A DNA stretch of 64,000 nt from Candidatus Latescibacterota bacterium (GCA_965243025.1 CBDETY010000003.1:2400001-2464000); one strand, 5' to 3'. Positions 5,138 through 45,753 are shown, numbered from the stretch's first letter. Made by a program: numbers and translations. Notes: generated from the letters alone by a model not told the origin.

Positions 5138-8100
5138 ATGAAGGTTGCGATCGGCTGTCTCGTATGGTTGTTGTCGAGCCTGCAGGCGGAGGCCGAGCCC
5201 TTGGTCGAGGGCCGGGTGAGACTGGCCTCGGGGGATCCCGCCGCCGGGGCTCAGGTGCTGCTGTTCGATCTGAACGACCTGCGCCTGGCGCCGGCCGTGG
5301 CGACGACGGATGAGGCGGGATACTTCTCTCTGCCATTCGGGGGATTGCGGGGGCGGGTGCCGGTCCTGCCGGAGCGGTTCGAGCTGGGCCATAACTACCC
5401 CAATCCGTTCAATCCTTCCACCATCATCCCCTACCAGCTGCCGGCCCCGACCCGGTTGCGGCTCGAGATCTTCAATATCCTCGGACAGCGGGTGACGACC
5501 CTGGTCGACGGGGAACGTCCGGCCGGTTTTCACACCGCCCGCTGGGACGCCACCGATGCGGCGGGGCGGGCGGTGGCCGCGGGAGTCTACTTCTACCGGC
5601 TGAAAGGGGACGGGGTTCACCTGACTCGGCGCATGGTGTTGATCGACGGGCAGGCCGGGATTCCTTCGGCCGGGGGGAGCGGTCCATCCACCGCCGCCGG
5701 GGAGGAGGTGGAAACGCCCCCGGTGGTCGGGTTGACCGTCTCGGGAGAGGGGCTGGTCCCCTACCTCGACCCGGCCTTCCGGGTAGAGCCTGGAATGGCG
5801 CCCGTGGAGGTTGTCGTCGAAGCCCTGGGCGGGGTCCGGCATGGGAAGGTGGCCTCCAGCGGAATCCTGGGGGACGTCGACAACAACAGCCGGGTCGACA
5901 TTTTCGACGCCCTGCTGGTTGCCGTGTACAGCGCCAATCCCAGCCTCGTCATGCCGAACAACGGGGATATAACCCTCGGCGACGTCAACCGGGACGGCCG
6001 CACGGATCTCACCGACGCCTACCACATCGCCGCCTACACAGTCGATCCCTCAGACCCGACGCTGCCTCCAGGAATAGGGGAAGCCCTGGTCCAGGGGACG
6101 GGGACCGCATCGCTGTCCCCCCCGCCCTCCACCGTCTCCTTCGAGGACGACGGAGCATGGCACCGGTTTACGGTCCGGGCAGGCGAGTCGATCGTGGTGG
6201 TTGCCAACCCCACCGGAACCACCCCGCGCGTGGAGATCAACGCCACCAGCGGTTCCAATTACTGTCCGGCCGAAGCCGAGGACGACCGGGCGCGCCAGGA
6301 CGGCGAGGAAGTCTACCTCGCCGGCTGCTCCTCTGGAACGGGTACAGTTGAACTGCGGCGGGCGTCCGACCAGACCGTTCTGCAGACCTATACCTTCACG
6401 ATACGGGGACAGGGAACAGGTGGAGGGGGCGGCGGCACCGGCCCCGACCTGGTCGTCGAGCCCCCTGCGGTCAGCAACAGCAGCCCCACTGCCGGAGCCT
6501 CCTTCACCCTGAGGGCCAGAGTCCGCAACCAGGGAGCCGCCCGGTCCAGCTCGACCACCCTGCGCTACTACCGCTCCACCGACGCCACCGTTTCCACCAG
6601 CGACACCCAGGTCGGAACCGACCCGGTCAGCAGCCTGTCCGCCTCCCGCACCAGCTTCGAGTCGATCAGCCTGCGCGCCCCCTCCAGCGCCGGCACCTAC
6701 TACTACGGGGCCTGCGTCGAGAGCGTCAGCGACGAAACCGATACCGGAAACAACTGCTCCGCTTCCGTAACCGTTACCGTGGGAGCGGCCCCTGCCCCGG
6801 ATCTCGTCGTCGAGACCCCTACGGTCAGCAACGGCAGCCCGACCGCCGGAGCCTCCTTCACCCTGAGGGCCAGGGTCCGCAACCAGGGAAACGGCCGGTC
6901 CAGCTCGACCACCCTGCGCTACTACCGCTCCACCGACGCGACGGTCTCCGCCAGCGACACCGAAGTCGGCACCGATCCGGTCAGCAGCCTGTCCGCCTCC
7001 CGCACCAGCTCCGAGTTCATCAGCCTGCGCGCCCCCTCCAGCGCCGGCACCTACTACTACGGAGCCTGCGTCGAGAGCGTCAGCGGAGAAACCAATACCG
7101 GAAACAACTGCTCCGCTGCCGTCACCCTGACCGTGGGCGCCGCACCCGCCCCGGATCTCGTCGTCGAGACCCCTACGGTCAGCAACTCCAGCCCGGCCGC
7201 CGGAGCCTCCTTCACATTGAGGGCCAGGGTCCGCAACCAGGGAAACGGCCGGTCCAGCTCGACCACTCTGCGCTACTACCGCTCCACCGACGCGACGGTC
7301 TCCGCCAGCGACACCCAGGTCGGAACCGACCGGGTCAGCAGCCTGTCGGCTTCCCGGACCAGTTCCGAGTCGATCAGCCTGCGCGCTCCATCCAGCGCCG
7401 GCACCTACTACTACGGAGCCTGCGTCGAGAGCGTCACCGGAGAAACCAATACCGGAAACAACTGCTCCGCTTCCGTCACCCTGACCGTGGGCGCCGCACC
7501 CGCCCCGGATCTCGTCGTCGAGGCCCCTACGGTCAGCAACTCCAGCCCGGCCGGCGGAGCCTCCTTCACCCTGAGGGCTACGGTCCGCAACCAGGGTGCC
7601 GCCCGGTCGGGCTCGACCACCCTGCGCTACTACCGCTCCACCGACGCCACCGTTTCCACCAGCGATACCGAAGTCGGCACCGACCCGGTCAGCAGCCTGT
7701 CCGCCTCCCGCACCAGTTCCGAGTCGATCAGCCTGCGCGCCCCCTCCAGCGCCGGCACCTACTACTACGGGGCCTGCGTCGGGAGTGTCAGCGGAGAAAC
7801 CAATACCGGAAACAACTGCTCCGCTGCGGTGGCCGTAACCGTGCCCGGAACCGTCACTCAGCCGCCCCCCCAACCGGGAGTGGCGAAGCTGTACTGGTCG
7901 GACTGGGGCACGGACAAGATCCAGCGCGCCGACCTCGACGGCTCCAATGTCGAAGACCTGGTAACAGGCGCCGGACTGGACGGCCCGGACGGGCTGTCCC
8001 TGGATCTGGCCGGCGGCAGGATCTACTGGGCGGATGCCGGCACCAACAAGATTCAGCGGGCCAACCTCGACGGCTCGGGGGTAGAGGACCTCGTCACCGG

Positions 8101-33407: not shown

Positions 33408-33608
33408 GGATCCAAACCCCCTGCAATCCGGTCCACCGCCGATGACTTCGGCGCAGATGGTTCGAGTTCCGGAACAGAAGGCAGCCCCACCCTTCAGTGC
33501 CGTCGGAGTAATGGGAAACTGCATGGACCAAGGGCGCCTGACCCGAGGTGCTTCTGAATGGAAGTGTTGGACCAACCCCCAGCCCCCACCAAGGAGGGGT
33601 GCAGAGTC

Positions 33609-36600
33609 ATGAAAACGCCTGCTGTGAATCACCAATTCCCTCAGCTGGTTCCAGGATTGCTGCCTTTCTGCGCAGCCTTTCTGCTCGCCGCGGGGGCAGC
33701 GGATGCCTCCACGGTTTCCTACGACAGCGACGACGACGGCCTGATCGAGATCAGCACCCTGGCGCAGTTGAACGCCATCCGCTGGGACCTGGACGGCGAC
33801 GGCGCCGCGGACAACGGTTCGAACGCATCCGCTTATACCAGAGCCTTCCCCAATCCGGCTGCGGGAATGGGCTGCGCCGCGGCCGACCACGATGGACATT
33901 CGGCCACCCCGGACGTGCCGGTCTGTACCGGGTACGAGCTGAAGGTGGACCTGGACTTCGACACCGACGGCGATGGCGACATGGATGTGGGCGACGAGTA
34001 CTGGAACAGAGGCGCGGGCTGGGAGCCCATAGGCAGTTCCGGAAACGAATTCATCGCCACCTTTGACGGCGATGGGCACACCATCACCCGCCTGTACATC
34101 GATCGCTCCTCAAGCCGGATCGGTCTGTTCGGGGTTGTCGGCGACGGCGGGCAGGTGCGGAACGTGGGAGTTCGAGAGGCCAATGTGACCGGCTCGGGCA
34201 AAGGGAGCATTGTCGGTGGGCTGGCGGGAAAGAACGCCGGCATCATCACCGGGAGCTATGTGACGGGGTCCGTGACAGGCACGGGATCGGGCAGCAGCGA
34301 AGTCGGGGGACTGGTTGGCAGGAACGCAGGCTCCAGCGGCGCCAGCCGCAGCATCGTCGCCAGCCATGCTTCGGCGTCGGTGACCGGCTCGGGCAGCCAT
34401 GGCCGGGTCGGTGGGCTGGCCGGGTACAACTACGGAAGTATCCGCGCGAGCTATGCGACCGGGGCGGTGAGGGGTACAGGCAGCAATTCGGAAGTCGGTG
34501 GACTGGTGGGGTTTCACAACGGCGGGAGCATCGCGGTCAGTTATGCGTCGGGCGCGGTCACCGGCGGGAGCCATGTCGGCGGGTTGGTGGGCAAGAACTG
34601 GGGCGGCGGCATCTGGGCCTGCTATGCGTCGGGCGCGGTGACCGGCGGTAACTACGTGGGCGGGCTGGTGGGGGAGATCCAGGGGAGCATCCGAGCGAGT
34701 TACGCGACAGGCTGGGTGACGGGGACGGGAACCTACGTCGGCGGGCTGGTGGGAAGAGACTACGACCTGGTAATCAACAACAGCTCCTCGTTCATCGGCA
34801 ATTGCTACTGGAATACCACGACCTCGGGAAAGGTGTCGAGCGCCGGAGGGGAAGGCAAGGCCACAGCGGAACTGCAGACCCCCACCGGGTACGCGGGCAT
34901 CTACGCGGAATGGAACCTGGATCTGGACAACGCGGACGGCGACCGCGATGCGACCACCGGTGGCGACGACCCCTGGGACTTCGGGACCGCGCAGCAGTAC
35001 CCGGCGCTGCGGGCGGATTTCGACGGCGACGGCACGACTACGTGGCGAGAGTTCGGAGAGCAGAGGCCGGACGCCGCCCCGCCGGACGACGCGGGTTCCC
35101 CGAATGACGCGACGCTGAAAGCGTTGGGAGTCAGTCCCGTGGACATCGAGGGTTTTGCCGCCGACGTGCGCACCTATCAAATCGGCGTGGACAACGAAGT
35201 CAGCCAAGTGACGGTTACGCCCTACCTGAATGACGAGGCGGCGACCGTCGACATCAATGGAAGTTCGGTCTCCAGCGGATCCGGTCACGCCGTCTCGCTC
35301 GCGGAAGGGCGAAACGAAATCACCATCACGGTAACCGCGCAGGACAGCACGACCACTAAAGAATACATCATTGTTGCGGGCAGAGGCTCCAACGCCCCCT
35401 TTGCCTGGAAGGTTACTGATGACTTTGGGGCGCGTCTCCCGTTTACGGAACCCTACGGTATCTGGTCAAGCGGCACGACTATGTGGGTGATGCACACATC
35501 GCTTTTTTTCAGGGATCCCGGCGAGACTTCGAAGTATACGACGCTTCAAGCATATGGAATGTCCACGAAAGAGCAAGGGGTGTCCTTCCATACTCTGAAA
35601 ACTTGGGGAAACGACGATCCCCTGGGCATTGCATCAGATGGAACAACCATGTGGGTTGCGGATCATTACGATGGCAAAATATACGCCTACCGGTTGTCCA
35701 ACTACTCAAGGAATCTGTCCAGGGAAATAAACGGTTTGGTTCTCGCAGGAATTACCAAGCCCAAAGGCATAGCCGTGGAACCCGTCCTGGGCGGGTTCTG
35801 GGTCGCCGATGATGCCGACGATAAACTATACGCCTACAATCGGCACACCCTGAGGCGAATCCCCAATGCGGATTTCAACACCCTCGCCGCCGCCGGGAAT
35901 AACAATCCGACCGGCATCTGGACAGACGGTACGACCATGTGGGTTGCTGACAGTCTCGACGCCAAGCTATACGCCTACGACAGGAGCTCCAAAGCCCGCG
36001 TTCCATCCAAAGACTTCAACACTCTGAGGGCTGCGGGTAATACAAGGCCTTGGGGCATCTGGTCTGACGGCGAGACCATGTGGGTAACCGATTGGTGGGA
36101 TAAGATATTCTCCTACAACATGCCCGACTTTTCGGACGCGACGTTGAGCATGCTGACCGTGAGTCCCGCGGGCATCGCCGGCTTCGACAGCGAAGTGACG
36201 GCCTATCACGTGGGCGTCGCCAACGACGTGACGCAGGTCTCGCTAATTCCAACCCTTACCCTGTCAGGTGGCACAATCGATCTCGACGGGAGCAGCGTCG
36301 CCAGCGGCTCCTCCCATTCGGTCTCACTGTCAGAGGGGCGAAACGACGTCACCATCACGGTAACCGCCGATGATGGCCGGACGACCGAAGTCTACACCGT
36401 AACCGTAGGACGGAGCGACACCACGGCCTACGGGTGGAACGCCGCTGAAGACTTCAACACTCTGTACTCCGCAGACAACGATTTCCCGACAGGCCTCTGG
36501 GCGGACAGCACCACGATCTGGGTTTCCGATCTGGATGGCAAACTCTACGCCTACAACAGGTCTACCAGGGCCCGTGACGCGGCGAAGGACTTCGATGCGT

Positions 36601-38006
36601 TGGGACCCGCCGGAAATACTAGCCCCCGTGGAATGTGGTCCAACGGAGTGACCATGTGGGTTGCGGACACGGATGATGACAGGATATACGCCTACAACAT
36701 CGCTACGAAATCCCATGACCGGAGCAAGGACCTCACCACCCTGAACGCGGCCGGAAACGAATATCCCACCGGCATTTGGTCCGACGGCACGACCATGTGG
36801 GTGGTGGACGCCCGGGACGAGAAGATTTACGCCTATAACCTGGCCACCAGGGCCCGTGACGCGAGCAAGGATTTCAACACCCTGAGCGCTGCTGGAAACT
36901 TCAGCCCCCAAGACATCTGGTCTGACGGCACGACCATGTGGGTGGTGGAAGACCGGGGACCCCATGCCTCAGGTGACAAGGTCTATGCATATGACATGGC
37001 GACGAAGATTCGCGAACCGGCCAAGGACTTCACCGGGTTGACGGCCGCCGGAAACAAGGAACCGTCCGGTATCTGGTCCGACGGAACGACCCTGTGGGTT
37101 GCCAACTACGAACAACGCAGCTTCACCGATGCAGGGGATCGCCTCAGGCATTACAGCGCCAAGATATATGCTTACAACATGCCGCCCAAGTCCACCGTCG
37201 GTTTCCCGGGGGCCCCCAGTATCCGGTCGGTGACCCCCGGGGAAGGCTCCCTCACCGTGACCTGGGACGCGCCATCCAGCGACGGAGGGTCCGCCATCAC
37301 CGCCTACTACCTGCGTTACACCCGCACCAGGGGTGGCGGTAATCTTCTGGGGGGCCGGGTACGTGTCTGGACTACCGACTCGGGAGCCCTGAGGTACGAA
37401 CTGACCGGCCTGGCTGAAGGCACCCAGTGGGATCTGGAGGTGCAGGCGGTCAACAGCCGAGGCGAGGGCCCTTGGTCCGCCGCCCTCAGCGGAACTCCGA
37501 CACAAGCAACACAGGCGAAAGCAGCCACCGATTTCAACGAGGACGGCAAGACCGATTTCGTCGACTTCTTCCAGTTCATCGACGCCTTCGGCAGCACCGA
37601 CCCGAAGTTCGACCTCGACGGAAGCGGCACCGTCGACTTCGTCGACTTCTTCCAGTTCGTCGATGCCTTCGACCAGCCGGGACAGGCCAAGCTGCTGGCA
37701 CTGGCCCACGAGAGGCTCGGCCTTCCTTCCGAAACCGAATTGCAGCAGAATTGGCCCAACCCCTTCAACAGCGAAACCGTAATCTCATGGTTTCTGCTGG
37801 AGCCGGGTCCAGTGCGGCTGGAGGTTTTCTCCCTGACGGGACAGCGGGTGGCGGTGCTGCAGCAGGGGCCGCTCAAGGCAGGCCGCCACCGCGTCCATTG
37901 GAACGGCCGGGACGATTCGGGCCGCCCCCTTGCCAGCGGCGTTTACCTGTACAGGCTGGCGACGGACGAGACCGTCCAGACGCGAAAACTCACACTGCTG
38001 CGGTGA
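33609..38006 (+). CDS. Secreted adhesin-like protein: GLUG-type repeats, 2 cadherin-like sandwiches, 2 five-repeat propellers, FN3, dockerin-like + FlgD/T9SS-CTD-like domain
   Basis: RBS AAGGAGG before ATG 33609; DSDDDGLIEI; VGGLVG repeats; DATL...EGRNxxTITVTAxD twice; GIWSDGTTMWV repeats; LTVTWDAPSSDGGSAITAY. Confidence 0.88.
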   Translation: MKTPAVNHQFPQLVPGLLPFCAAFLLAAGAADASTVSYDSDDDGLIEISTLAQLNAIRWDLDGDGAADNGSNASAYTRAFPNPAAGMGCAAADHDGHSATPDVPVCTGYELKVDLDFDTDGDGDMDVGDEYWNRGAGWEPIGSSGNEFIATFDGDGHTITRLYIDRSSSRIGLFGVVGDGGQVRNVGVREANVTGSGKGSIVGGLAGKNAGIITGSYVTGSVTGTGSGSSEVGGLVGRNAGSSGASRSIVASHASASVTGSGSHGRVGGLAGYNYGSIRASYATGAVRGTGSNSEVGGLVGFHNGGSIAVSYASGAVTGGSHVGGLVGKNWGGGIWACYASGAVTGGNYVGGLVGEIQGSIRASYATGWVTGTGTYVGGLVGRDYDLVINNSSSFIGNCYWNTTTSGKVSSAGGEGKATAELQTPTGYAGIYAEWNLDLDNADGDRDATTGGDDPWDFGTAQQYPALRADFDGDGTTTWREFGEQRPDAAPPDDAGSPNDATLKALGVSPVDIEGFAADVRTYQIGVDNEVSQVTVTPYLNDEAATVDINGSSVSSGSGHAVSLAEGRNEITITVTAQDSTTTKEYIIVAGRGSNAPFAWKVTDDFGARLPFTEPYGIWSSGTTMWVMHTSLFFRDPGETSKYTTLQAYGMSTKEQGVSFHTLKTWGNDDPLGIASDGTTMWVADHYDGKIYAYRLSNYSRNLSREINGLVLAGITKPKGIAVEPVLGGFWVADDADDKLYAYNRHTLRRIPNADFNTLAAAGNNNPTGIWTDGTTMWVADSLDAKLYAYDRSSKARVPSKDFNTLRAAGNTRPWGIWSDGETMWVTDWWDKIFSYNMPDFSDATLSMLTVSPAGIAGFDSEVTAYHVGVANDVTQVSLIPTLTLSGGTIDLDGSSVASGSSHSVSLSEGRNDVTITVTADDGRTTEVYTVTVGRSDTTAYGWNAAEDFNTLYSADNDFPTGLWADSTTIWVSDLDGKLYAYNRSTRARDAAKDFDALGPAGNTSPRGMWSNGVTMWVADTDDDRIYAYNIATKSHDRSKDLTTLNAAGNEYPTGIWSDGTTMWVVDARDEKIYAYNLATRARDASKDFNTLSAAGNFSPQDIWSDGTTMWVVEDRGPHASGDKVYAYDMATKIREPAKDFTGLTAAGNKEPSGIWSDGTTLWVANYEQRSFTDAGDRLRHYSAKIYAYNMPPKSTVGFPGAPSIRSVTPGEGSLTVTWDAPSSDGGSAITAYYLRYTRTRGGGNLLGGRVRVWTTDSGALRYELTGLAEGTQWDLEVQAVNSRGEGPWSAALSGTPTQATQAKAATDFNEDGKTDFVDFFQFIDAFGSTDPKFDLDGSGTVDFVDFFQFVDAFDQPGQAKLLALAHERLGLPSETELQQNWPNPFNSETVISWFLLEPGPVRLEVFSLTGQRVAVLQQGPLKAGRHRVHWNGRDDSGRPLASGVYLYRLATDETVQTRKLTLLR

Positions 38007-38156
38007 TTTTTCCTGAATGCTACGGGCGATTTCCCCCCCATCTTTGTATCCTATGGTTCATATAATTTTTGAATGTTGGTATTTCCGCTTTTTTTTGCGG
38101 CCTTTTCAGTGCTTCCGCTCAGAAAAGCGCTGCTCACCCTAGGAACGGAGAATGAT

Positions 38157-39191
38157 ATGCCGGGTTTTTTCCTGCTGGCCTGCTTTTCGGCTTTTTTTCT
38201 GACCTCTCGGGTTTTCTCCCAACAGGTCTCCGCTCCGGAGACCGAAAATCCCGGCCCGTCCCTGCAGGCCGTTGAGCCGCCCCCTGCCCCGGCTGCCTGC
38301 CTGGTCGGGGAACATTCCGGTTTCCCGGAAGCCGACGCGCGGACCGCCGCGCTTCTCGTGTGCGGCGAGCTGAACAAACAGGGCATAGCGGTCGGGGAGC
38401 CCGCTTTCCGTGCACCGGACTCCGGGGGTATCTACCGGTTGGGGCTGCACCGCCTGGGACAAAAGATCCTGGTGCGCCTGAGCCATGAATTCCCCGCCGG
38501 GACCGTCGTTGTCGAGCGGCAGATCCAGTTGGGAAATATCGAAGAGATGATCTCGGCCGCGCCGCGACTGGTCGATGCCCTCGTCCACCGGAAATCGCTC
38601 GCGGCCACGGTCGACATGGAGAGTGTCGTTGAACAGGAGGCACGCCGGCATCGAAAGATACCCGGTGAGTCCTTCTGGGATATCGGGCTCCTTGGAACTT
38701 TCGCTCTCATCACGGACGCTGACATGATAGGCAAACCGGGCTACAGTCTCGGCTGGTTTCACGAGACACCGTCCTATGCCGTGGGAACCGCGTTCTGGGG
38801 TGCAGGAGGAGAGGACGATGAGGGCGACAGCTTTCACTTTTTCTCCTGGGGAATCGGGGGCCGCTACTTCTTCAACAAGCAGAACTTCTCGCCCTATGTC
38901 GGCGGCGGGTTCTCCCACGTCTGGTCCGGCTATGAACAAACAACCTCGAGGTGGAATTCGAGGCGGGACAGGTGGGAAGAGGAATGGGAATCCGAAGACG
39001 GGAATGGCCTGGGGGGTTACGTCGTCGGCGGAATGGAAGCCATGCGTCTCACCAGTGTTCGCCTCAAGCTCGAATTGCGCGTGGACCGGCCGTTTTTTCA
39101 GTTGGAAACCCGGGACGTGATGCCGGTGACACTGGGTGTTTCGTTTTGCTTCCGCGGAGGTGGGGGAGGATTCGGAGGGATGTGGTTTTGA
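38157..39191 (+). CDS. Exported protein with probable C-terminal outer-membrane beta-barrel
   Basis: Signal peptide; alternating aromatic/Gly strands GGRYFF, SPYVGGG, GYVVGG; terminal F. Confidence 0.6.
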   Translation: MPGFFLLACFSAFFLTSRVFSQQVSAPETENPGPSLQAVEPPPAPAACLVGEHSGFPEADARTAALLVCGELNKQGIAVGEPAFRAPDSGGIYRLGLHRLGQKILVRLSHEFPAGTVVVERQIQLGNIEEMISAAPRLVDALVHRKSLAATVDMESVVEQEARRHRKIPGESFWDIGLLGTFALITDADMIGKPGYSLGWFHETPSYAVGTAFWGAGGEDDEGDSFHFFSWGIGGRYFFNKQNFSPYVGGGFSHVWSGYEQTTSRWNSRRDRWEEEWESEDGNGLGGYVVGGMEAMRLTSVRLKLELRVDRPFFQLETRDVMPVTLGVSFCFRGGGGGFGGMWF

Positions 39192-39763
39192 AACCGGCTT
39201 ACCTGTCCGCAATCCTTGTCGGCTGTGCCCTTTCCCCGGAGGCGGCAGCCGAGACGCAAACGGGCCATTCGGCATCCCTTGCCCACGACCGGAACCTGCT
39301 GCTGAAGGCGACCCGTTTCGGGGCGCTGGAGCTGGCTTTCCCCAAGGCCTGCGCGGCCATGCCCGACAGCCTGCGGGAGGGGGCCGAGGATGAGGCCAAC
39401 CAGGCCAACCGGCCCGGGTTTCAATACAAAATCGAGCACTTCTGCGGGTTTGCGGAGGGGCACGCATTGGTTCTCAGCCGCATCGTCGGTCAGGAGCCGT
39501 CCGCGGACTTCGCCTACCTGGCCGGGTACCAGCCGGTGGAGCGCCGTTCCGGGGACGACTACCTCCAGGTGCGATCCATGAATTCGGGGGCGGTAGCGCT
39601 CCGGGAGTACTCCTTCGTGCGCTCGGGCTTTATCGTCAGGCAGGTGTTCGTCCAGACCCCCGCGGCAGTGTACCAGCTGGACGTACTCATCCGGAAAGCG
39701 TGGACCGGAGTCATGATCAAGACCTACGAGTCCGTGCTTTCTTCCATTCACATCGTTCCCTGA
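39188..39763 (+). CDS. Hypothetical exported protein
   Basis: TTG overlapping the upstream TGA, signal-peptide-like MKPAYLSAILVGCALSPEAAA, fills the gap to the next gene. Confidence 0.55.
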   Translation: MKPAYLSAILVGCALSPEAAAETQTGHSASLAHDRNLLLKATRFGALELAFPKACAAMPDSLREGAEDEANQANRPGFQYKIEHFCGFAEGHALVLSRIVGQEPSADFAYLAGYQPVERRSGDDYLQVRSMNSGAVALREYSFVRSGFIVRQVFVQTPAAVYQLDVLIRKAWTGVMIKTYESVLSSIHIVP

Positions 39764-39774
39764 GGAGGGATACC

Positions 39775-40059
39775 ATGAAGAAGAAGCTGATCGCCCCGCT
39801 GCTGCTGGCCGTCCTGGTCCTGGCCGGCTGCTCCGCCCACGTGCACATGGTGGGCCAGGGTGCACAAGGGACCGAAGTGGTAGCCGCACGGCAGTTCTAC
39901 GTCATCAGCCTGGCGCCGCTCAACGAGGTGGATACGCGGGCCATGGCCGGCGGAGCCGAGGACTACACCATCAAGACAGCGGCCGGTTTCGTCGACATCG
40001 TCATCGGGGCAGTCACCGGGGGGATCATCACGTCCCGCAAGGTGGTGGTGGAAAAATAG
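39775..40059 (+). CDS. Small Bor/Iss-like lipoprotein
   Basis: RBS GAGGAGG, lipobox VLAGC, and a RQFYVISL...VDTRAM...FVDIVIG...SRKVVV pattern typical of the Bor family. Confidence 0.65.
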   Translation: MKKKLIAPLLLAVLVLAGCSAHVHMVGQGAQGTEVVAARQFYVISLAPLNEVDTRAMAGGAEDYTIKTAAGFVDIVIGAVTGGIITSRKVVVEK

Positions 40060-40074
40060 CCGGACGCTGACATC

Positions 40075-40122
40075 GCCTGCTGCCTGCCCCTCCCCCCGGG
40101 CAGGCAGCCCATACAGGCTTTT
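40075..40122 (+). terminator. Probable terminator hairpin between the Bor-like gene and ppk2
   Basis: Perfect 11-bp stem GCTGCCTGCCC/GGGCAGGCAGC (40079-40108), outer GCCTG/CAGGC, then TTTT. Confidence 0.45.
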
Positions 40123-40145
40123 CAACGGGTGGTCAGGAGCGTGAG

Positions 40146-40967
40146 ATGGCAAAAAAGGAAAAAGGAGATCCCCCCGACTCCTCCGGCAAGGGGAAGTTGA
40201 ACCGGGTGGGTTACGAGAAGGAGCTGGCCAAGCTCCAGACAGAGCTGGCCAAGCTGCAGGAATGGATACGCCACGAGGGCCTGAAGGTCGTCGTCATCTT
40301 CGAGGGCCGCGACGCGGCCGGCAAGGGAGGCGTAATCCGGCGCATCACCGAGTCGCTCAACCCCCGCATCTGCAGGGTCGTCGCCCTCGGCACTCCGACG
40401 GAGCGGCAGAAGACGCAGTGGTATTTCCAGCGCTACGTCGAGGAACTTCCGGCGGCCGGGGAGATGGTTCTGTTCGACCGCAGCTGGTACAACCGCGCCG
40501 GCGTCGAGCGGGTGATGGGTTTCTGCACGGAAACGGAAGTGAATGAGTTCTTCCGCAGCTGTCCCGAGTTCGAGCGCATGCTGGTGCGCTCGGGAATCAT
40601 CCTGATCAAGTACTGGTTCTCGGTTTCCGAGGAGGAGCAGGGACGGCGTTTCAAGCAGCGCATCTCCGACCCGGCGCGGCGCTGGAAGCTCAGCGGCATG
40701 GACCTGGAAGCGCGCACCCACTGGGTCGACTACTCGCGGGCCAAGGACGACATGTTCCGCCATACCGACATCAAGCAGGCGCCCTGGTTCGTCGTCGACG
40801 CCAACAACAAGCGCCGGGCCCGCCTCAACTGCATCTCCCACCTGCTGGGCATGATCCCTTACAGGAACGTGCTTCCTGACAAGCTCGAGCTCCCGCCGAT
40901 GCAGCAGGATGACAGCTACGTGCGCCCCCCGGTGGATGACCAGACCTTCGTGCCCGAGGTGTACTGA
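40146..40967 (+). CDS. ppk2: Polyphosphate kinase 2 (class I-like)
   Basis: FEGRDAAGKGG (Walker A), WYFQRY, FDRSWYNRAGVE (Walker B), RWKLS. Confidence 0.95.
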   Translation: MAKKEKGDPPDSSGKGKLNRVGYEKELAKLQTELAKLQEWIRHEGLKVVVIFEGRDAAGKGGVIRRITESLNPRICRVVALGTPTERQKTQWYFQRYVEELPAAGEMVLFDRSWYNRAGVERVMGFCTETEVNEFFRSCPEFERMLVRSGIILIKYWFSVSEEEQGRRFKQRISDPARRWKLSGMDLEARTHWVDYSRAKDDMFRHTDIKQAPWFVVDANNKRRARLNCISHLLGMIPYRNVLPDKLELPPMQQDDSYVRPPVDDQTFVPEVY

Positions 40968-41000
40968 GCATCCCGTCAGATCAAGGGAGACCGATCCGCG

Positions 41001-42353
41001 ATGATCCTTCGATCACTCATCCATGCACTGGTGTTGGCGTCGCTGTCCGTACCGGCGGTTTCGCAAGATGGGCTTGCCGCAGCGACCGAGACGGACACCG
41101 CCGAAGTCTACCAGACCCGGCACAATCAGATGCTCTCCTTTCCCAAGCACCTCTGGAATATCCTTATCTACCCGATCGGGCAGTTCACCATCTGGGCCGA
41201 AGCCAAAGGCCTGTTCACCCGCGGGGGCAAGGAGAAAACCGCCGGATGGTTCCCTTATGTGGTCTTCGGCGGTGAGACGGGAACCGGTGAGGAAACAGGG
41301 TTCGGGGGTGGGCTCAACCTGTTTCGCGCTGATTTGTTCGGGCGGGGAAATCAATTCTCCGCGAACTTGATCGCCAACCGCTCCAATTACAGCGGGATTG
41401 CCCGGTATGGCGACCCCGGGGTCGGCGGCGGCCCCTGGTATTGGAATGCGACCGTCGAAGCGTTGGGAACCAGGTACGACAAGGCTACCATCAATGGCGA
41501 GGGCGAATCGGGGGGCCCTGAGGAGCGGTTCGATTTCCAGCAGCGAGACGTACGGCTTACTCTGAGACGCCACTCAAACTACGGCGAGACCGATGGCTGC
41601 GAACCGGATGCGATCGTTGAACTGCGGCTGTCGTACGGCTTTCGCCAGTACGACGATATCGGCCGCGAGTCCAGCGGCATTGCCGGGGCGAACGAGGCCA
41701 TCGACCTGTTCTCGGTCGGCGGCCGAACGGCCTACGACGACCGCGACTTCAAGCCGCCGAGCCGGTCAATCAGCCATCCTTTGAACTATCAATTCCCCGG
41801 ACGCGTCCTGTTGTTCGCCGACGGGAACTACTACAGCTTCCGCGACACCGCCTTCCCCGAGCGCGGCGGACTCATCCAGATCGAGGCGGATTACGCCGTC
41901 GGGTCCGGGAACGTTCGGTATTTACATTACGCAGCCGAAGTTCAGCGATTCTTCACGCTGTTTTACAACAATCGGATTCTTGCCTTGCGGGCAAGGCTCG
42001 AAAAGGCGCATCCCCTCGGAGACGACAGCATCATTCCCTATTCCGACCTGAACACCCTGGGAGGCGGTCAGCGCTTGCGGGGCTACAAGCGAGGATTCTT
42101 CCGCGGCCAGGGCAGCCTGCTGTTCAGCGCCGAGTACCGCTACCCGATCTGGGATACCTGGAACGCCTTCCTGTTCGTCGACGAAGGGCAGGTGTTCGAA
42201 AAGTACGGCGACCTCGAACCGGCGGCGTTCAAGTACAGTTTCGGCGGCGGCATCAGCGTGCGGACGGAACGCGCCTTCCTGTTCGGGCTGCGCGTCGCCC
42301 GCAGCGAGGAGGAAAAGGCATTGGTGGGGCTTTCACTGGAGAAGGACTTCTGA
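41001..42353 (+). CDS. Omp85/BamA-TamA-family outer-membrane beta-barrel without obvious POTRA domains
   Basis: Signal peptide; LGGGQRLRGYKRGFFRG (VRGY-loop equivalent), SAEYRYP, FVDEGQV, SFGGG; terminal F. Confidence 0.85.
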   Translation: MILRSLIHALVLASLSVPAVSQDGLAAATETDTAEVYQTRHNQMLSFPKHLWNILIYPIGQFTIWAEAKGLFTRGGKEKTAGWFPYVVFGGETGTGEETGFGGGLNLFRADLFGRGNQFSANLIANRSNYSGIARYGDPGVGGGPWYWNATVEALGTRYDKATINGEGESGGPEERFDFQQRDVRLTLRRHSNYGETDGCEPDAIVELRLSYGFRQYDDIGRESSGIAGANEAIDLFSVGGRTAYDDRDFKPPSRSISHPLNYQFPGRVLLFADGNYYSFRDTAFPERGGLIQIEADYAVGSGNVRYLHYAAEVQRFFTLFYNNRILALRARLEKAHPLGDDSIIPYSDLNTLGGGQRLRGYKRGFFRGQGSLLFSAEYRYPIWDTWNAFLFVDEGQVFEKYGDLEPAAFKYSFGGGISVRTERAFLFGLRVARSEEEKALVGLSLEKDF

Positions 42354-44029
42354 TGATTGTCCCGACGGTGACGTTGCTGTTGGCTTGGAGTCTGTTGTTT
42401 CCCAACGCGGCCACGGCCGCCCCGGAGCTGACCACCGAGCCGATCAAGTGGTTCGACGCCGACAACAGGCATATCACCGAGCCGGTCGAGATCGAGGAGA
42501 ACCAGGTCTGGGACATCGCCGACCACACCTTCTTTCACCAGGTCGGGAAAGTGCTCGACCTGGGGTGGTCCGCCCGCAGGGCCGGCAACCTCCTTGGCTT
42601 CGCCGGCCCGCGCCAGGCCGACAACGTCAACGCCCTCGACGAGGTGCCCAACTCCTCCTGGTTCACCAACCGGCACTTCCTGCGGCCAATGACCCTGGAA
42701 GAGCTGGCCGCCGGACCCGGTTTCTCCGAGCCGGACGACAGCGGCCCCTGGGAGATCGTCGCCGGCAAGTTCGAAGGCGGCACCGCCGGCTTCACCATCA
42801 AGGACGCCTCGAAGCGGTATTTCCTTCTCAAGTTCGATTCCGAAGGGAACAACGAGATGGGGTCGGCCGCGGAGGCGATCGCCACCAAGGTCCTGTACGC
42901 CGCCGGGTACAACGTGCCCCGCAACTCTGTCGTCTACTTCCACCCCGGGCTGCTGCGGATCGGCCCGAAGGCCAAGGTGCCGACCGGAGACGGCGGCAAG
43001 CGGCCGATGACGCAGGCGGATCTGCAAGGCATCCTCGACAACATCATCCCGCAGCCGGACGGCACCCTGCGCTGCATGGCCAGCGAATTCCTCGAGGGCA
43101 AGCCGGTCGGGGTCTTCAACTACGACGGCCGGCGAAAAGACGACCCCAACGACCGGGTCGACCACGAGCACCGACGCGAGCTGCGCGGCCTGCGCGTGAT
43201 CGGCTCCTGGCTCAACGACGCCGACCGCCGGGCGGCCAACACCCTCGACATGTACGTGACCGAAGAGGACGGCCGCAGCTACATCCGCCACTACCTCATA
43301 GACATGGGTTCCGCCCTCGGCAGCAACAACAGGATGCCGCACCTGCCCAAGTACGGCAACGAGTACGTCTGGGATCCGCGCACGATCCTGCGCTCGCTCG
43401 TGTCGTTCGGGCTCTACCGCAAGAAGTGGGAAGAGCCGCTGCCGATGAAGTACCCCGCGATCGGCTACTTCGAGAACGAGACCTTCAGTCCCCGGGGATG
43501 GGTTCCCACCTATCCCAACCCCGCGTTCGAGCGCTGCACCGACCGGGACGGGTACTGGGGCGCCAAGATCGTCATGGCCTTCCGCGACGACGAGATCCGC
43601 GCCATGGTCGAGCAGGGGCGCTACTCCGATCCGGGCGCCACTGCGGAGCTGACCCGGCTTTTAGCCGAGCGGCGGGACATGATCGGACGCTACTGGTTCG
43701 AGCGCGTCAACCCGCTGGATCACTTTCAAGTTGAAGACGGCGGCTTGCGGTTCGCCGATCTCGCCGTGGAGGGGGGGCTGGCGCGGCGGGCGTCGCGTCA
43801 GTGGCGGTATGCTGCCGTCGATGCAGACGGAGACCCGGTTTTCGATCCGCGGCCGATAGCCGAGCCGCTCATCCCGGTCGGCGATGAGGCGCGGGGCGGG
43901 GAGTTCTTCGGCTACCGGATCCGGAGCCGGAGCGGCGATGGCACCAAGTGGAGCAACCGAACTACGGTGTTTCTCCACAAGCACGAGGATGGCCGCCTCC
44001 AACTGGTTCGGATCGACCGGGAAGGGTAG
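42353..44029 (+). CDS. Secreted atypical kinase-fold protein (HipA/PI3K-PI4K/CotH-like)
   Basis: Signal peptide ending ATAA; Gly loop EGGTAGF, beta3 Lys LLKFD, helix-C Glu AAEAIATK, catalytic loop DRRAAN, IDMG; ATG overlaps the Omp85 stop (TGATG). Confidence 0.75.
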   Translation: MIVPTVTLLLAWSLLFPNAATAAPELTTEPIKWFDADNRHITEPVEIEENQVWDIADHTFFHQVGKVLDLGWSARRAGNLLGFAGPRQADNVNALDEVPNSSWFTNRHFLRPMTLEELAAGPGFSEPDDSGPWEIVAGKFEGGTAGFTIKDASKRYFLLKFDSEGNNEMGSAAEAIATKVLYAAGYNVPRNSVVYFHPGLLRIGPKAKVPTGDGGKRPMTQADLQGILDNIIPQPDGTLRCMASEFLEGKPVGVFNYDGRRKDDPNDRVDHEHRRELRGLRVIGSWLNDADRRAANTLDMYVTEEDGRSYIRHYLIDMGSALGSNNRMPHLPKYGNEYVWDPRTILRSLVSFGLYRKKWEEPLPMKYPAIGYFENETFSPRGWVPTYPNPAFERCTDRDGYWGAKIVMAFRDDEIRAMVEQGRYSDPGATAELTRLLAERRDMIGRYWFERVNPLDHFQVEDGGLRFADLAVEGGLARRASRQWRYAAVDADGDPVFDPRPIAEPLIPVGDEARGGEFFGYRIRSRSGDGTKWSNRTTVFLHKHEDGRLQLVRIDREG

Positions 44030-44158
44030 GAAAAGTTTCTCCAGGATCCACTGGCCCTTGGCCAGGCCAGTTGTTCACGCTTCATTCCCGTTTGCGTTCG
44101 TCACCCCTGTGGCAGACCCCCTGACACTCCTGACCTTCACCAGTAAACGGGCTCGCTC

Positions 44159-45625
44159 GTGAAAACCATCTTCATCATCCTCGATTCCCTGAACCGCCAC
44201 TACCTCCGCAGCTACGGCCCCTCCTGGGTGCAGACACCCAACATCGACCGCCTGGCGCGGCGCGGCCTGGTGTTCGACAACCACTACAGCTGCTCCCTTC
44301 CCTGCATGCCGGCGCGGCGCGACCTCTACACCGGGCACGCCGGATTCCTCGAGACGCCCTGGAGCCCGCTGCAGCCCTGGGACGACACCCTGCACGCGGA
44401 GCTGCGCCGGCAGCGCCAGACCTACAGCCACCTCATCACCGACCACTACCACTACTTCCACAGCGGCGGCGAGTTCTACCACGTCCAGTTCGACAGCTGG
44501 GAGTTCGCGCGCGGCCAGGAGCGGGACGTCTGGCGGCCGCTGGTCGACCTGCCGCCCCCGCCTCCCCACCTCGGCAAGTCGCAGCGCGGGTACTGGGCCA
44601 ACCGCGCCTTCGCCGACACCGGGAACGACGAGGACTACCCGACCCCGCAGTGCTTCGCCCGCGCCATCGAGTTCCTCGACGCCAACCGCGGAGCCGACAA
44701 CTGGCACCTCCACCTCGAGTGCTTCGACCCCCACGAACCGTTCTCCTGCCCGGCGCGCTACCGCGAGCTCTACGGCGACACCTGGGAGGGGGAGCACTTC
44801 GAGTGGCCGGAGTACGCCCCGGTGAGCGAGAGCCCCGAGGCGGTCGAGCATATCCGCAAGTCGTACGCCGGCACCCTGACCATGGCCGACGCCTGGCTCG
44901 GCAGGTTCCTCGACCGGATGGACGAGCTCGACATGTGGGAGGATACCGCCGTCGTCCTGAGCACCGATCACGGTCACCTGCTCGGCGAGCACGGGTACTG
45001 GGCCAAGAACTACATGTTCGACTACGAGGAGCTGGTGCACATACCCCTGATCGTCTGCGCTCCCGGGGTCGGGCACCGCCGCGTGCCGGCGCTGACCTCC
45101 GCCCTCGACCTGATGCCGACCTTCATGGAGCTGCACCGGGGGGAACTGCCGCCGAACGTGCAGGGCCGCTCCCTCTGCCACCTGCTGCCGGGGGGCGGCA
45201 GCCACCACGACGCCGTGTTCTTCGGCTACTTCGGCAAGGACATCAACCTCACCGACGGCCGCTACAGCTACTGCCGGCAGCCGCTGCCCGGCTCCTTCGC
45301 GTACAACCACGCTGCGGTGCTGTGCACATCACCCGACCCGGGCAGGATGGGAAATCCCCTGCACAGCCGGGAGGATCTCGCCGGGGCCGAGCACGGTCTC
45401 TTCCTGCCGCACACCCACGGCATTCCCCACCTGCGCCTGAAGGTGCCGTCGCACCGGCACCACAACGCCCCGGACTTCAACCCGGTCTACGATCTGGAGG
45501 CCGACCCGGGGCAGGAGAACCCGGTCCGGGACGGCCGGCTGGAGGAGGAGCTGGCGGGACAGATGAGGGAGCTGCTCAAGCGCTACGGAGCCCCGGAGAG
45601 CGAGTTCAGGCGGGTGGGGCTGTAG
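44159..45625 (+). CDS. Formylglycine-dependent sulfatase
   Basis: IILDSL, TPNIDRLA, CMPAR (CxPxR), DPHEP, STDHG; GTG start. Confidence 0.93.
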   Translation: MKTIFIILDSLNRHYLRSYGPSWVQTPNIDRLARRGLVFDNHYSCSLPCMPARRDLYTGHAGFLETPWSPLQPWDDTLHAELRRQRQTYSHLITDHYHYFHSGGEFYHVQFDSWEFARGQERDVWRPLVDLPPPPPHLGKSQRGYWANRAFADTGNDEDYPTPQCFARAIEFLDANRGADNWHLHLECFDPHEPFSCPARYRELYGDTWEGEHFEWPEYAPVSESPEAVEHIRKSYAGTLTMADAWLGRFLDRMDELDMWEDTAVVLSTDHGHLLGEHGYWAKNYMFDYEELVHIPLIVCAPGVGHRRVPALTSALDLMPTFMELHRGELPPNVQGRSLCHLLPGGGSHHDAVFFGYFGKDINLTDGRYSYCRQPLPGSFAYNHAAVLCTSPDPGRMGNPLHSREDLAGAEHGLFLPHTHGIPHLRLKVPSHRHHNAPDFNPVYDLEADPGQENPVRDGRLEEELAGQMRELLKRYGAPESEFRRVGL

Positions 45626-45753
45626 GGGTGGGGATACAAGTGGCCTGGTCCACCGCTTCAGGAAACATCTCCTGAGGAAACCTTAGCTTTAGAGATTCCT
45701 TCGAAACCAGGGCCACTGGTATTCCGGAGAATACTCCACATTCAGTTAGAGGA

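What the first reader, a model, noticed from the sequence alone, without database searches (positions are those of the whole stretch)
40146..44029. Candidate undescribed extracytoplasmic phosphorylation system: secreted atypical kinase + Omp85 barrel + PPK2, with an ATP/ADP translocase beside the kinase paralog
Seen: 42353..44029 has a cleavable signal peptide yet carries a full ordered set of kinase-fold motifs (Gly loop EGGTAGF, LLKFD Lys, helix-C Glu, DRRAAN, IDMG). It is translationally coupled (TGATG) to a POTRA-less Omp85 barrel, which follows ppk2 after a gap of only 33 bp. Its close paralog at <2..1003 is followed after 18 bp by an NTT/TLC transporter. Established: the periplasm normally lacks ATP; NTT proteins exchange ATP/ADP across membranes; class I PPK2 regenerates NTP from polyphosphate; DxxxxN...DxG is the HipA/PI4K/CotH/Fam20-type signature. 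Inference: a module in which the translocase exports ATP, PPK2 recycles ADP (or polyP is the phosphoryl donor), and the barrel exports or anchors the kinase or its phosphorylated product (protein, glycan or lipid).
Basis: partly seen in the sequence, partly recalled or inferred. Interest (0 to 1): 0.85.

Follow-up and report, generated by a model that had tools for sequence, protein, structure and literature searches.

The report
Exported kinase paired with Omp85 barrel
An outer-membrane barrel gene is tightly coupled to a gene for an exported enzyme with a kinase fold, and across many bacterial phyla the pair sits beside ATP/ADP-carrier-like transporters, which hints that these bacteria may run ATP-dependent phosphorylation outside the cytoplasm.

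Summary
42353..44029 encodes a 558-aa exported protein ("X"). Its AlphaFold2 model (pLDDT 93.8) matches atypical kinases: H. pylori CtkA Z 15.0, Fam20C Z 13.4, PI4KII Z 12.3, CotH Z 11.9. Lys160, Asp291, Asn296 and Asp317 are kept in 48-51 of 53 divergent homologues, all with an N-terminal signal or lipoprotein signal. The upstream gene is a 16-stranded Omp85 barrel without POTRA and overlaps X by TGATG.

A barrel gene lies directly upstream of X in 72 of 78 loci from other genomes. An NTT/TLC-like carrier lies directly downstream in 37 of 78. ppk2 appears in 1 of 78. One 981-aa protein fuses X to the barrel. In 151 genomes of the phylum, all 20 with the orthologous carrier also have X. Many operons add an NTT-HEAT carrier, a cNMP-binding protein and a lipoprotein purple-acid-phosphatase-like enzyme.

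So the barrel, kinase and carrier module is real and I found no paper describing it. PPK2 and the sulfatase are local neighbours only. ATP export is inferred, not shown, and three Myxococcota genomes have the pair with no TLC gene.

The parts
42353..44029 (+). X: an exported 558-aa protein. It has a signal peptide (about residues 1-23), an N-terminal helical region, an atypical kinase domain (about 120-452) and a C-terminal FnIII-like beta-sandwich (453-546).
   Evidence: There is no Pfam, NCBIfam or PDB sequence hit. The AF2 model has pLDDT 93.8. VIA gives Z 15.0 to CtkA, 13.4 to Fam20C, 12.3 to PI4KII and about 9 to FnIII domains. K160, D291, N296 and D317 are kept in 50, 51, 50 and 48 of 53 homologues.
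41001..42353 (+). POTRA-less (noNterm-type) Omp85 outer-membrane barrel, translationally coupled to X.
   Evidence: PF01103 scores 65.8 bits with no other family at E<=10. The model has 16 long strands and an N-terminal helix at 43-68. Foldseek matches BamA, TamA and Sam50 at E about 1e-12. The LRGY loop motif (R360, G361) is invariant in 30 sequences. The TGATG overlap is confirmed.
2..1003 (+). C-terminal 333 aa of X', the 80%-identical paralogue of X. The gene starts outside the window and its own barrel gene lies upstream of it.
   Evidence: L003 11984..13327 is the barrel, 61% identical; L003 13327..15003 is X'.
1022..2455 (+). Short NTT/TLC-family carrier (477 aa), 18 nt after X'.
   Evidence: PF03219 scores 71 bits against a cut-off of 21. 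TIGR00769 scores 65 against a cut-off of 387, which is not reached. It matches PDB 9j3n at E 3.3e-16. Orthologues lie directly after X in 37 of 78 loci.
40146..40967 (+). Class-I-type PPK2, cytoplasmic (no signal peptide). It is a neighbour here, not part of the conserved module.
   Evidence: TIGR03707 scores 374.8 bits against a cut-off of 301.8. It is present in 1 of 78 related loci, where a divergent gene separates it from the barrel.
44159..45625 (+). Sulfatase-family hydrolase, 129 nt after X. It is a neighbour here, not part of the conserved module.
   Evidence: PF00884 scores 121.6 bits. It is adjacent to X only in L004 among 78 loci.

Best explanation
The conserved unit is a two-gene cassette that occurs twice in this genome. 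It encodes a POTRA-less Omp85 outer-membrane barrel and, translationally coupled to it, an exported protein (X).

X has a Fam20C/CtkA/PI4KII-like kinase domain with a complete catalytic set: the beta3 Lys, the helix-C Glu, the D-x4-N catalytic loop and a metal-binding Asp. It also has a C-terminal FnIII-like domain.

Shown here: the fold, the conservation of export signals and catalytic residues, the operon structure, a natural X-barrel fusion, and the recurrent linkage and co-occurrence with NTT/TLC carriers.

Inferred:
1. X is an active phosphotransferase that works in the periplasm or at the outer membrane, held by or acting with its barrel.
2. In the lineages that carry them, the NTT carriers in the inner membrane exchange cytoplasmic ATP for periplasmic ADP and so feed X. 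This would parallel the ATP carriers that supply lumenal Fam20C in eukaryotes.
3. The lipoprotein purple-acid-phosphatase-like enzyme found in many of the operons reverses the phosphorylation or trims the nucleotides.

The substrate (envelope protein, lipid or glycan) is unknown. PPK2 and the sulfatase beside the window's second cassette are not part of the system.
For: **Fold**
- The AF2 model has pLDDT 93.8 and pTM 0.92.
- Foldseek hits to PDB: Fam20C 4kqa at E 1.7e-5, CtkA at 6.6e-5, PI4KIIalpha at 8e-4 and CotH at 2e-3.
- VIA gives Z 15.0 to CtkA (236 residues, 4.4 A). It gives 13.2-13.4 to Fam20C, 12.3 to PI4KII, 11.9 to CotH, 11.4 to HipT and 10.0 to HipA.
- An independent profile comparison gives the same answer. 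The X core scores 39.5 against a HipA alignment (P 1.1e-4). None of 60 template shuffles, none of 40 query shuffles and none of 10 earlier shuffles reach that score. It pairs K160, D291, N296 and D317 with HipA K181, D309, N314 and D332.

**Conservation**: catalytic residues are kept in 48-51 of 53 homologues, and all 53 have N-terminal signals.

**Barrel coupling**
- A barrel gene lies directly upstream in 72 of 78 loci.
- Of 77 barrel-X pairs, 55 overlap or lie within 30 nt.
- P0270 fuses X to the barrel.

**Carrier coupling**
- An NTT gene lies directly downstream in 37 of 78 loci, or 35 of the 62 loci with at least 2 kb of room.
- In 151 phylum genomes X is in 36 and the orthologous carrier in 20. 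All 20 are X-positive, and in 17 of them the two genes are adjacent.
- The carrier is homologous to solved ATP/ADP carriers.

**Exported phosphatase partner**: a metallophosphoesterase is present in 21 loci. Nine of the 10 N-termini I read have a lipobox. The best PDB relatives are diphosphonucleotide phosphatase and purple acid phosphatases.
Against: - No activity, ATP binding, substrate or direction of transport has been shown.
- 33 of 78 loci show no NTT gene. 16 of the 36 X-positive genomes in the phylum sample lack the close carrier orthologue, although a few of these have divergent NTT genes beside X.
- 3 of 3 Myxococcota genomes with the barrel-X pair have no TLC-family match. The same search finds the window's carrier as a positive control. 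A dedicated carrier is therefore not obligatory.
- X could instead be displayed on the cell surface, where carrier-supplied ATP would be of little use.
- ATP released into the periplasm could leak through porins.
- All characterised NTTs import nucleotides (PMC5381601).
- Expression evidence is weak. A few contigs from one RNA library lie on X, and DNA carry-over is not excluded.
Confidence: 0.5

Rival explanations
1. Secretion system with a kinase passenger. The barrel acts like a two-partner or type Vd (PlpD-like) translocator and puts X on the cell surface or outside the cell. There X acts on other cells or on host material, as secreted CtkA of H. pylori is said to do. The NTT carriers import nucleotides and are linked only loosely.
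For: The natural fusion has the order enzyme then barrel, like type Vd autotransporters. The best structural match is the secreted kinase CtkA. Many homologues are lipoproteins. Leptospira noNterm Omp85 genes also sit next to lipoprotein genes (PMC11358297, passages read). Characterised NTTs are importers (PMC5381601).
Against: The barrel has no POTRA domain and X has no recognisable TPS domain. The strict nesting of the carrier orthologue within X-positive genomes (20 of 20) and its adjacency to X (17 of 20) are left unexplained. The family lives mostly in free-living soil, sediment and saline bacteria.
Confidence: 0.2
2. Nucleotide or phosphate scavenging module. The exported phosphatase and X process extracellular nucleotides or phosphate esters, and the NTT carriers take up the products. 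X acts as a nucleotide-binding or phosphotransfer step, not as a signalling or modifying kinase.
For: The operons hold NTT carriers together with a lipoprotein related to diphosphonucleotide and purple acid phosphatases. Known NTTs import nucleotides.
Against: It gives no role to an Omp85 barrel fused or translationally coupled to X. A complete protein- or lipid-kinase-type catalytic set is conserved. The window's own genome has neither the phosphatase nor the NTT-HEAT gene next to either cassette.
Confidence: 0.12
3. X is a catalytically silent or regulatory accessory of its barrel, comparable to the pseudokinase Fam20A. It serves outer-membrane biogenesis, and its link to NTT carriers reflects nucleotide sensing, not catalysis.
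For: Fam20A is among the structural matches at Z 12.6-12.9. The pairing with an Omp85 family member is tight.
Against: The Lys, Asp, Asn and Asp needed for catalysis are kept in 48-51 of 53 homologues at 32-55% identity. That pattern is what purifying selection on an active site would give.
Confidence: 0.08
4. One reading: PPK2 is a working part of the module. It either regenerates ATP from ADP for the exported kinase, or polyphosphate is the phosphoryl donor.
For: There is a 33-nt gap with no terminator-like site between ppk2 and the barrel gene in this genome. Co-transcription here is therefore possible.
Against: ppk2 is in 1 of 78 related loci. In that same-genus genome a divergently oriented 319-aa gene lies between ppk2 and the barrel. 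The PPK2 has no signal peptide. The paralogous cassette has no ppk2.
Confidence: 0.03

Closest known systems
Fam20C / Golgi casein kinase (secretory-pathway kinases; PDB 4kqa, 4kqb, 5yh0)
   Same: It is an atypical kinase fold that works outside the cytosol behind a signal peptide. It is the best Foldseek match (E 1.7e-5) and scores VIA Z 13.2-13.4 over 252-261 residues, including X's N-terminal helical part from residue 31. It depends on ATP being carried into its compartment (my own knowledge). Purple acid phosphatase is a known counter-enzyme in animals (my own knowledge).
   Different: There is no sequence-family membership. PF06702 gives no hit at E<=10, and the profile score against bacterial Fam20C-like proteins is only 24.1. 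X has an FnIII-like C-terminal domain, an Omp85 partner and a bacterial envelope location.
HipA-family kinases, especially secreted CtkA of Helicobacter pylori (PDB 3akj, 3akk, 3akl)
   Same: CtkA is the highest structural match: Z 15.0, 236 residues, TM 0.52-0.56 on the CtkA length. The profile comparison with HipA aligns all four catalytic elements.
   Different: The Pfam HipA_C threshold is not reached (2 of 29 homologues, best E 0.14). There is no antitoxin partner. X carries a Sec or lipoprotein signal, is twice the size of CtkA and is coupled to an outer-membrane barrel.
noNterm Omp85 proteins (Heinz and Lithgow 2014, PMC4104836; Leptospira paralogues, PMC11358297)
   Same: It is a 16-stranded Omp85 barrel with the L6 RGY motif and no POTRA domain. 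Function is unknown, and in Leptospira these genes also sit beside lipoprotein genes (passages read).
   Different: This clade has a conserved N-terminal helix and an obligate kinase-like partner. The DUF5982 region named for the Leptospira and Cytophagales group gave no hit here.
NTT/TLC nucleotide carriers of free-living bacteria, including the NTT-HEAT and cNMP-binding forms (Major, Embley and Williams 2017, PMC5381601)
   Same: It belongs to the same family (PF03219) and is homologous to the solved carriers 9j3n and 9j3j. The same NTT-HEAT plus cNMP-binding gene pair follows X in many loci.
   Different: That paper leaves the function open. 'Outer membrane' and 'export' do not occur in its text. 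The link to a barrel and an exported kinase is the new part.
Type Vd autotransporter PlpD and two-partner secretion
   Same: An enzyme is paired with, or fused N-terminally to, an Omp85-family barrel (P0270).
   Different: There is no POTRA domain between enzyme and barrel, no TPS domain, and in the usual operon the barrel gene comes first.

Membership tests
Protein-kinase-like superfamily (atypical branch: Fam20, HipA/CtkA, PI4KII, CotH) | Two-lobed kinase fold | tested here: met
   The model has pLDDT 93.8. VIA gives Z 15.0 to CtkA, 13.4 to Fam20C, 12.3 to PI4KII, 11.9 to CotH and 10.0 to HipA. The 30 top VIA rows are all kinases.
Protein-kinase-like superfamily | ATP-binding Lys on strand 3 paired with a Glu on helix C | tested here: met
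   K160 ends strand 156-160 and is kept in 50 of 53 homologues. Position 174, in helix 169-184, is E in 38 and D in 10 of 53. K160 aligns with HipA K181. The salt bridge itself could not be measured because no coordinates were available.
Protein-kinase-like superfamily | Catalytic loop D-x4-N and a metal-binding Asp after the next hairpin | tested here: met
   D291 is kept in 51 of 53, N296 in 50 of 53 and D317 in 48 of 53. They align with HipA D309, N314 and D332.
Protein-kinase-like superfamily | Phosphotransfer from ATP | not testable with these tools
   This needs a biochemical assay.
HipA family (Pfam PF07804 HipA_C, PF20613 HipA_2) | Match to the family model above its threshold | tested here: not met
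   HipA_C matches 2 of 29 homologues with best E 0.14, and does not match X itself. X works like this family but is not a member by sequence.
Fam20C family (Pfam PF06702) | Match to the family model above its threshold | tested here: not met
   No hit at E<=10 in 29 homologues and none in the window's own genome. The profile comparison with 25 bacterial Fam20C-like proteins scores 24.1, P 0.018.
Omp85 superfamily | 16-stranded barrel with the Omp85 domain and the L6 (V/I/L)RG(Y/F) motif | tested here: met
   PF01103 scores 65.8 bits. The model has 16 long strands. Foldseek matches BamA, TamA and Sam50 at E about 1e-12. R360 and G361 are invariant in 30 sequences.
BamA, TamA and TpsB classes of Omp85 | One or more POTRA domains N-terminal to the barrel | tested here: not met
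   No POTRA family at E<=10 in 4 barrels. In the model only helices (33-37 and 43-68) precede the first strand.
noNterm Omp85 with DUF5982 | DUF5982 N-terminal region | tested here: inconclusive
   No such hit at E<=10. I did not verify that the Pfam copy holds this model.
NTT/TLC carriers (TC 2.A.12) | Match to PF03219 and homology to solved ATP/ADP carriers | tested here: met
   PF03219 scores 71 bits against a cut-off of 21, covering profile positions 150-369 of 491. PDB 9j3n matches at E 3.3e-16 and 9j3j at 7.8e-11.
NTT/TLC carriers | NCBIfam TIGR00769 NTP/NDP exchange transporter threshold | tested here: not met
   65.1 bits against a cut-off of 387.2. It is a distant branch of the family.
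NTT/TLC carriers | Adenine-nucleotide counter-exchange and its direction | not testable with these tools
   This needs a transport assay.
PPK2 as a part of the module | Recurrent linkage of ppk2 with X and the barrel | tested here: not met
   1 of 78 loci, and not adjacent there.

The most novel reading that the evidence does not exclude
Many free-living diderm bacteria run an ATP-fuelled phosphorylation system outside the cytoplasm. NTT-family carriers export ATP in exchange for ADP. A Fam20C/CtkA-like kinase docked to a dedicated Omp85 barrel phosphorylates envelope or secreted substrates. A purple-acid-phosphatase-like lipoprotein reverses the mark. This would be a bacterial counterpart of the eukaryotic secretory-pathway kinase system, and it would give a function to both the free-living NTTs and the noNterm Omp85 proteins.
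Probability: 0.35. Interest if true: 0.92.

Novelty: categorically new. Interest (0 to 1): 0.8.

Why it matters
Textbooks treat the periplasm as free of ATP, and no periplasmic ATP-dependent kinase system with its own nucleotide supply is described. My four literature searches for one found none. They did turn up the periplasmic ATP-dependent ligase Lig E as a related puzzle, which I saw only as a listing and abstract.

Two open questions become testable:
- What NTT carriers do in free-living bacteria. This was left open in 2017 (PMC5381601; abstract and first part of the text read, passages).
- What POTRA-less Omp85 proteins do (PMC4104836 and PMC11358297, passages read).

The family is large, with 2940 clusters at 50% identity at E<=1e-3. 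It spans Latescibacterota, Gemmatimonadota, Bacteroidota (Rhodothermales, Balneolaceae), Calditrichota, KSB1 and Myxococcota among others. Two record titles name strains and are not labelled as metagenome-assembled genomes: Aliifodinibius salipaludis WN023 (L056) and Halalkalibaculum sp. DA3122 (L066). These may allow genetics.

Tried and rejected
- **Sequence searches.** X, or its alignments, gave nothing usable against Pfam, NCBIfam and PDB. The weak PDB hits 3c1l and 7e40 were chance matches outside the kinase core.
- **hhalign against single E. coli HipA.** No signal. It needed a HipA alignment.
- **Family searches in genomes.**
  - PF00454, PF07804 and PF06702 gave no hit in the window's own genome.
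  - HipA_2 was not found in 151 phylum genomes.
  - Fam20C was not found in three Myxococcota genomes. It was then found in 24 of 151 genomes of that class.
- **Protein atlas.** It had no structure model for either homologue tried. The nearest named clusters (Fam20C 0.79-0.81, HipA_2, PI3_PI4, LepB_N) were only leads.
- **Complex prediction.** Unavailable, so binding of X to the barrel was not tested by co-folding.
- **Search for longer fused forms of X.** It found the X-barrel fusion but no NTT-X fusion. The tool itself says that finding none is weak evidence. The longer homologues P0259, P0269 and P0250 have no Pfam domain in their extensions.
- **Clusters c776 and c829** in the neighbourhood survey are shadow ORFs on the opposite strand, and I dropped them.
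- **Read laying.** It used contigs only. The barrel region had little cover in the RNA library, which proves nothing.
- **Literature on the solved NTT structures.** Not found, so nucleotide-binding residues of the carrier were not mapped.
- **Small shares of words in sponge metagenome runs.** Not taken as proof of habitat. One such run, when laid, did hold near-identical pieces.

Full report
**What is in the window**

Five genes lie on the + strand between 39775 and 45625.

| Coordinates | Gene | Evidence |
|---|---|---|
| 39775..40059 | Bor-like lipoprotein | |
| 40146..40967 | PPK2 | Pfam 351 bits; TIGR03707 374.8 bits against a cut-off of 301.8 |
| 41001..42353 | Omp85-domain protein | PF01103, 65.8 bits |
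| 42353..44029 | X, 558 aa | no hit in Pfam, NCBIfam or PDB sequences |
| 44159..45625 | sulfatase-family hydrolase | PF00884, 121.6 bits |

- The ppk2-barrel gap is 33 nt, and the barrel stop overlaps the X start as TGATG.
- At the left edge of the window, 2..1003 is the C-terminal third of a paralogue, X', that is 80% identical to X.
- X' is followed after 18 nt by a TLC/NTT-family carrier at 1022..2455 (PF03219 71 bits; PDB 9j3n 'ADP,ATP carrier protein 1' E 3.3e-16).
- I fetched the DNA upstream of the window. X' has its own barrel gene there, 61% identical to the first one and again overlapping X' at its stop and start.
- So the repeated unit is barrel plus X. One copy is followed by the carrier. 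The other is flanked by ppk2 and the sulfatase.

**The fold of X**

- An alignment of 53 homologues at 32-55% identity keeps K160 in 50, D291 in 51, N296 in 50 and D317 in 48 of 53.
- D267, H271, R275, R278, D399 and W402 are invariant.
- A profile comparison set the X core (residues 115-350) against E. coli HipA plus 23 HipA_C proteins taken from genomes of the phylum. It scored 39.5 (P 1.1e-4, probability 56%).
- Controls scored far lower. Reversed alignments scored 12-14 and the barrel alignment 13.9. None of 60 template shuffles (maximum 18.2), none of 40 query shuffles (maximum 21.4) and none of 10 earlier shuffles (maximum 26.0) reached 39.5.
- For scale, HipA against 25 bacterial Fam20C-like proteins scored 32-39. 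X against those Fam20C-like proteins scored 24.1, with the motifs in register.
- The HipA alignment pairs the X glycine-rich loop with the HipA P-loop. It pairs K160 with K181, D291 and N296 with D309 and N314, and D317 with D332.

The structure tool then opened.
- The AlphaFold2 model built from the 53-sequence alignment has mean pLDDT 93.8 and pTM 0.92.
- Foldseek against the PDB ranks these hits:

| Hit | E-value |
|---|---|
| Golgi casein kinase Fam20C (4kqa) | 1.7e-5 |
| H. pylori CtkA | 6.6e-5 (TM 0.52-0.56 on the CtkA length) |
| PI4KIIalpha | 8e-4 |
| CotH | 2e-3 |

- VIA-align gives these Z-scores:

| Match | Z |
|---|---|
| CtkA (236 residues, 4.4 A, model 126-459) | 15.0 |
| Fam20C (252-261 residues, starting at model residue 31) | 13.2-13.4 |
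| PI4KII | 12.3 |
| CotH | 11.9 |
| HipT | 11.4 |
| MavQ | 10.5 |
| HipA | 10.0 |

- Residues 453-546 form a separate FnIII-like beta-sandwich (Z about 9).
- In the model K160 ends strand 156-160, and E174 lies in helix 169-184. The D291..N296 loop follows helix 280-287, and D317 follows strand 309-315.
- The kinase-fold claim therefore holds.
- By sequence X is a member of neither the HipA nor the Fam20C Pfam family. It is a new family within the kinase-like superfamily.

**Export**

All 53 divergent homologues start with a hydrophobic signal-like segment. A simple lipobox pattern flags 24 of them, though some flagged positions are off by eye. In the closer alignment many members have L-x-G/A-C, where the window's protein has an A-x-A type site. 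I ran no dedicated signal-peptide predictor. The family is extracytoplasmic, partly soluble and partly lipid-anchored.

**The barrel**

- The model (pLDDT 78) has 16 long strands. They are preceded only by helices 33-37 and 43-68.
- Foldseek finds BamA, TamA and Sam50 at about 1e-12.
- The L6 RGY motif (R360, G361), an FxDxGQ strand motif and a C-terminal Phe are conserved.
- No POTRA family appears even at E<=10 in four members.
- This places it in the 'noNterm' class of Heinz and Lithgow. Its function is unknown, and in Leptospira it also neighbours lipoprotein genes (passages read).

**Neighbourhood survey**

A scan of one genome per species returned 78 loci from many phyla.
- A homologous barrel gene lies directly upstream on the same strand in 72 of 78. 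This is 68 of the 71 loci with at least 1 kb of upstream room. L016, L017 and L018 lack it, and L048 was missed by my script although it has one by eye.
- Among 77 barrel-X pairs, 23 overlap, 32 are 0-30 nt apart, 15 are 31-120 nt apart and one is further. In 6 I found no start codon.
- An NTT-like gene lies directly downstream in 37 of 78, which is 35 of the 62 loci with at least 2 kb of room. One lies somewhere in the locus in 45 of 78.
- ppk2 occurs in 1 of 78 (L004, same genus). There a divergently oriented 319-aa gene separates it from the barrel.
- A sulfatase is adjacent only in L004.

Clustering of all flanking ORFs showed a longer recurring operon, mainly in Balneolaceae, Latescibacterota and Gemmatimonadota. 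Its order is:
1. barrel
2. X
3. short NTT
4. NTT-HEAT
5. cNMP-binding protein
6. metallophosphoesterase (21 loci)
7. often a histidine kinase (12 loci)

The metallophosphoesterases are lipoproteins in 9 of the 10 N-termini I read. Their best solved relatives are diphosphonucleotide phosphatase 1 (E 1.4e-8) and purple acid phosphatases. Tandem barrel-X pairs occur in several loci.

**Co-occurrence**

- In 151 genomes sampled from the phylum, X is found in 36 and the close carrier orthologue (E<=1e-72) in 20.
- All 20 carrier-positive genomes have X. None of the 115 X-negative genomes has the orthologue.
- In 17 of the 20 the two genes are adjacent, in one they are about 10 kb apart, and in two they are far apart.

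**Fusion**

A search for longer relatives found one 981-aa protein, P0270, seen on 4 contigs. It is a lipoprotein-type X (residues 14-481) followed by the barrel family's N-terminal helix region and an Omp85 barrel (827-971). The order is the reverse of the operon order, so it is not a simple read-through. This supports a physical partnership of X and the barrel. I found no NTT-X fusion.

**Evidence against the ATP-supply model**

- Three Myxococcota genomes that carry barrel-X pairs have no TLC-family match, while the same search finds the window's own carrier.
- 16 of the 36 X-positive genomes in the phylum sample lack the close orthologue.
- The carrier is therefore not obligatory.
- Transport direction, kinase activity, substrate and the exact location of X are all untested.
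- Co-folding of X with the barrel was not available.
- Expression evidence is limited to a few contigs in one RNA library that lie on X, for example 257 nt with 4 differences.

**Comparison with what is known**

- Major, Embley and Williams (2017) described NTT, NTT-HEAT and cNMP-binding genes in free-living bacteria and left their function open. I read the abstract and the first part of the text.
- The words 'outer membrane' and 'export' do not occur in that paper.
- Four searches for exported bacterial kinases or periplasmic ATP found no description of this module.
- Earlier notes of this scan, found after my own survey, describe the same module in other genomes. They are unchecked AI notes and do not count as support.

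**Verdict**

- The reading is right on the kinase fold, the export signal and the barrel and carrier linkage. It is wrong on PPK2.
- The best-supported account is an envelope module of an Omp85 barrel with an exported Fam20C/CtkA-like kinase. In many lineages NTT carriers probably feed it with ATP.
- I hold that last step at roughly one in three to one in two.

Noticed in passing
L110-L134 (genomes of the class of G151): Bacterial Fam20C-like proteins (PF06702 above its cut-off) occur in 24 of 151 genomes sampled. Several N-termini that I read look like signal peptides or lipoboxes. This suggests a second family of exported kinase-like proteins in Myxococcota.
   Followed up: partly
window 2463..3416 (- strand): An MscS-like mechanosensitive channel gene converges on the carrier gene. 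MscS-like genes recur near the module in 5 other loci.
   Followed up: no
G110, G106, G109: The close orthologues of the short NTT in three genomes each carry one in-frame TAG. This could be a sequencing error, a pseudogene or recoding.
   Followed up: no
L082, L083 (G000:C3:3323030-3327013 and 2063037-2066861): The same genome encodes two large open frames (1051 and 925 aa) with CotH kinase domains, at 158 and 152 bits.
   Followed up: no
window 33558..38006 and 5138..10819; L003 3702..9368: There are very large exported repeat proteins. On L003, one has PD40 and ankyrin repeats plus a laminin-G domain. In the window, two giant proteins with repeated blocks were read only as translations.
   Followed up: no
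window 39500..45700: Near-identical DNA is held by four runs of one study. A sponge metagenome run holds pieces with few differences, for example 229 nt with 4. One RNA library has contigs on ppk2, X and the sulfatase gene.
   Followed up: partly
window 38073..39191 and 39775..40059: A 372-aa exported protein of no known family is conserved at 82% in the same-genus genome. A Bor-like lipoprotein (PF06291, 46.8 bits) lies upstream of ppk2.
   Followed up: no
L012, L025, L030, L006, L029: These loci hold tandem duplicated barrel-X pairs or second copies. In L012 a metallophosphoesterase gene lies between barrel and X.
   Followed up: no
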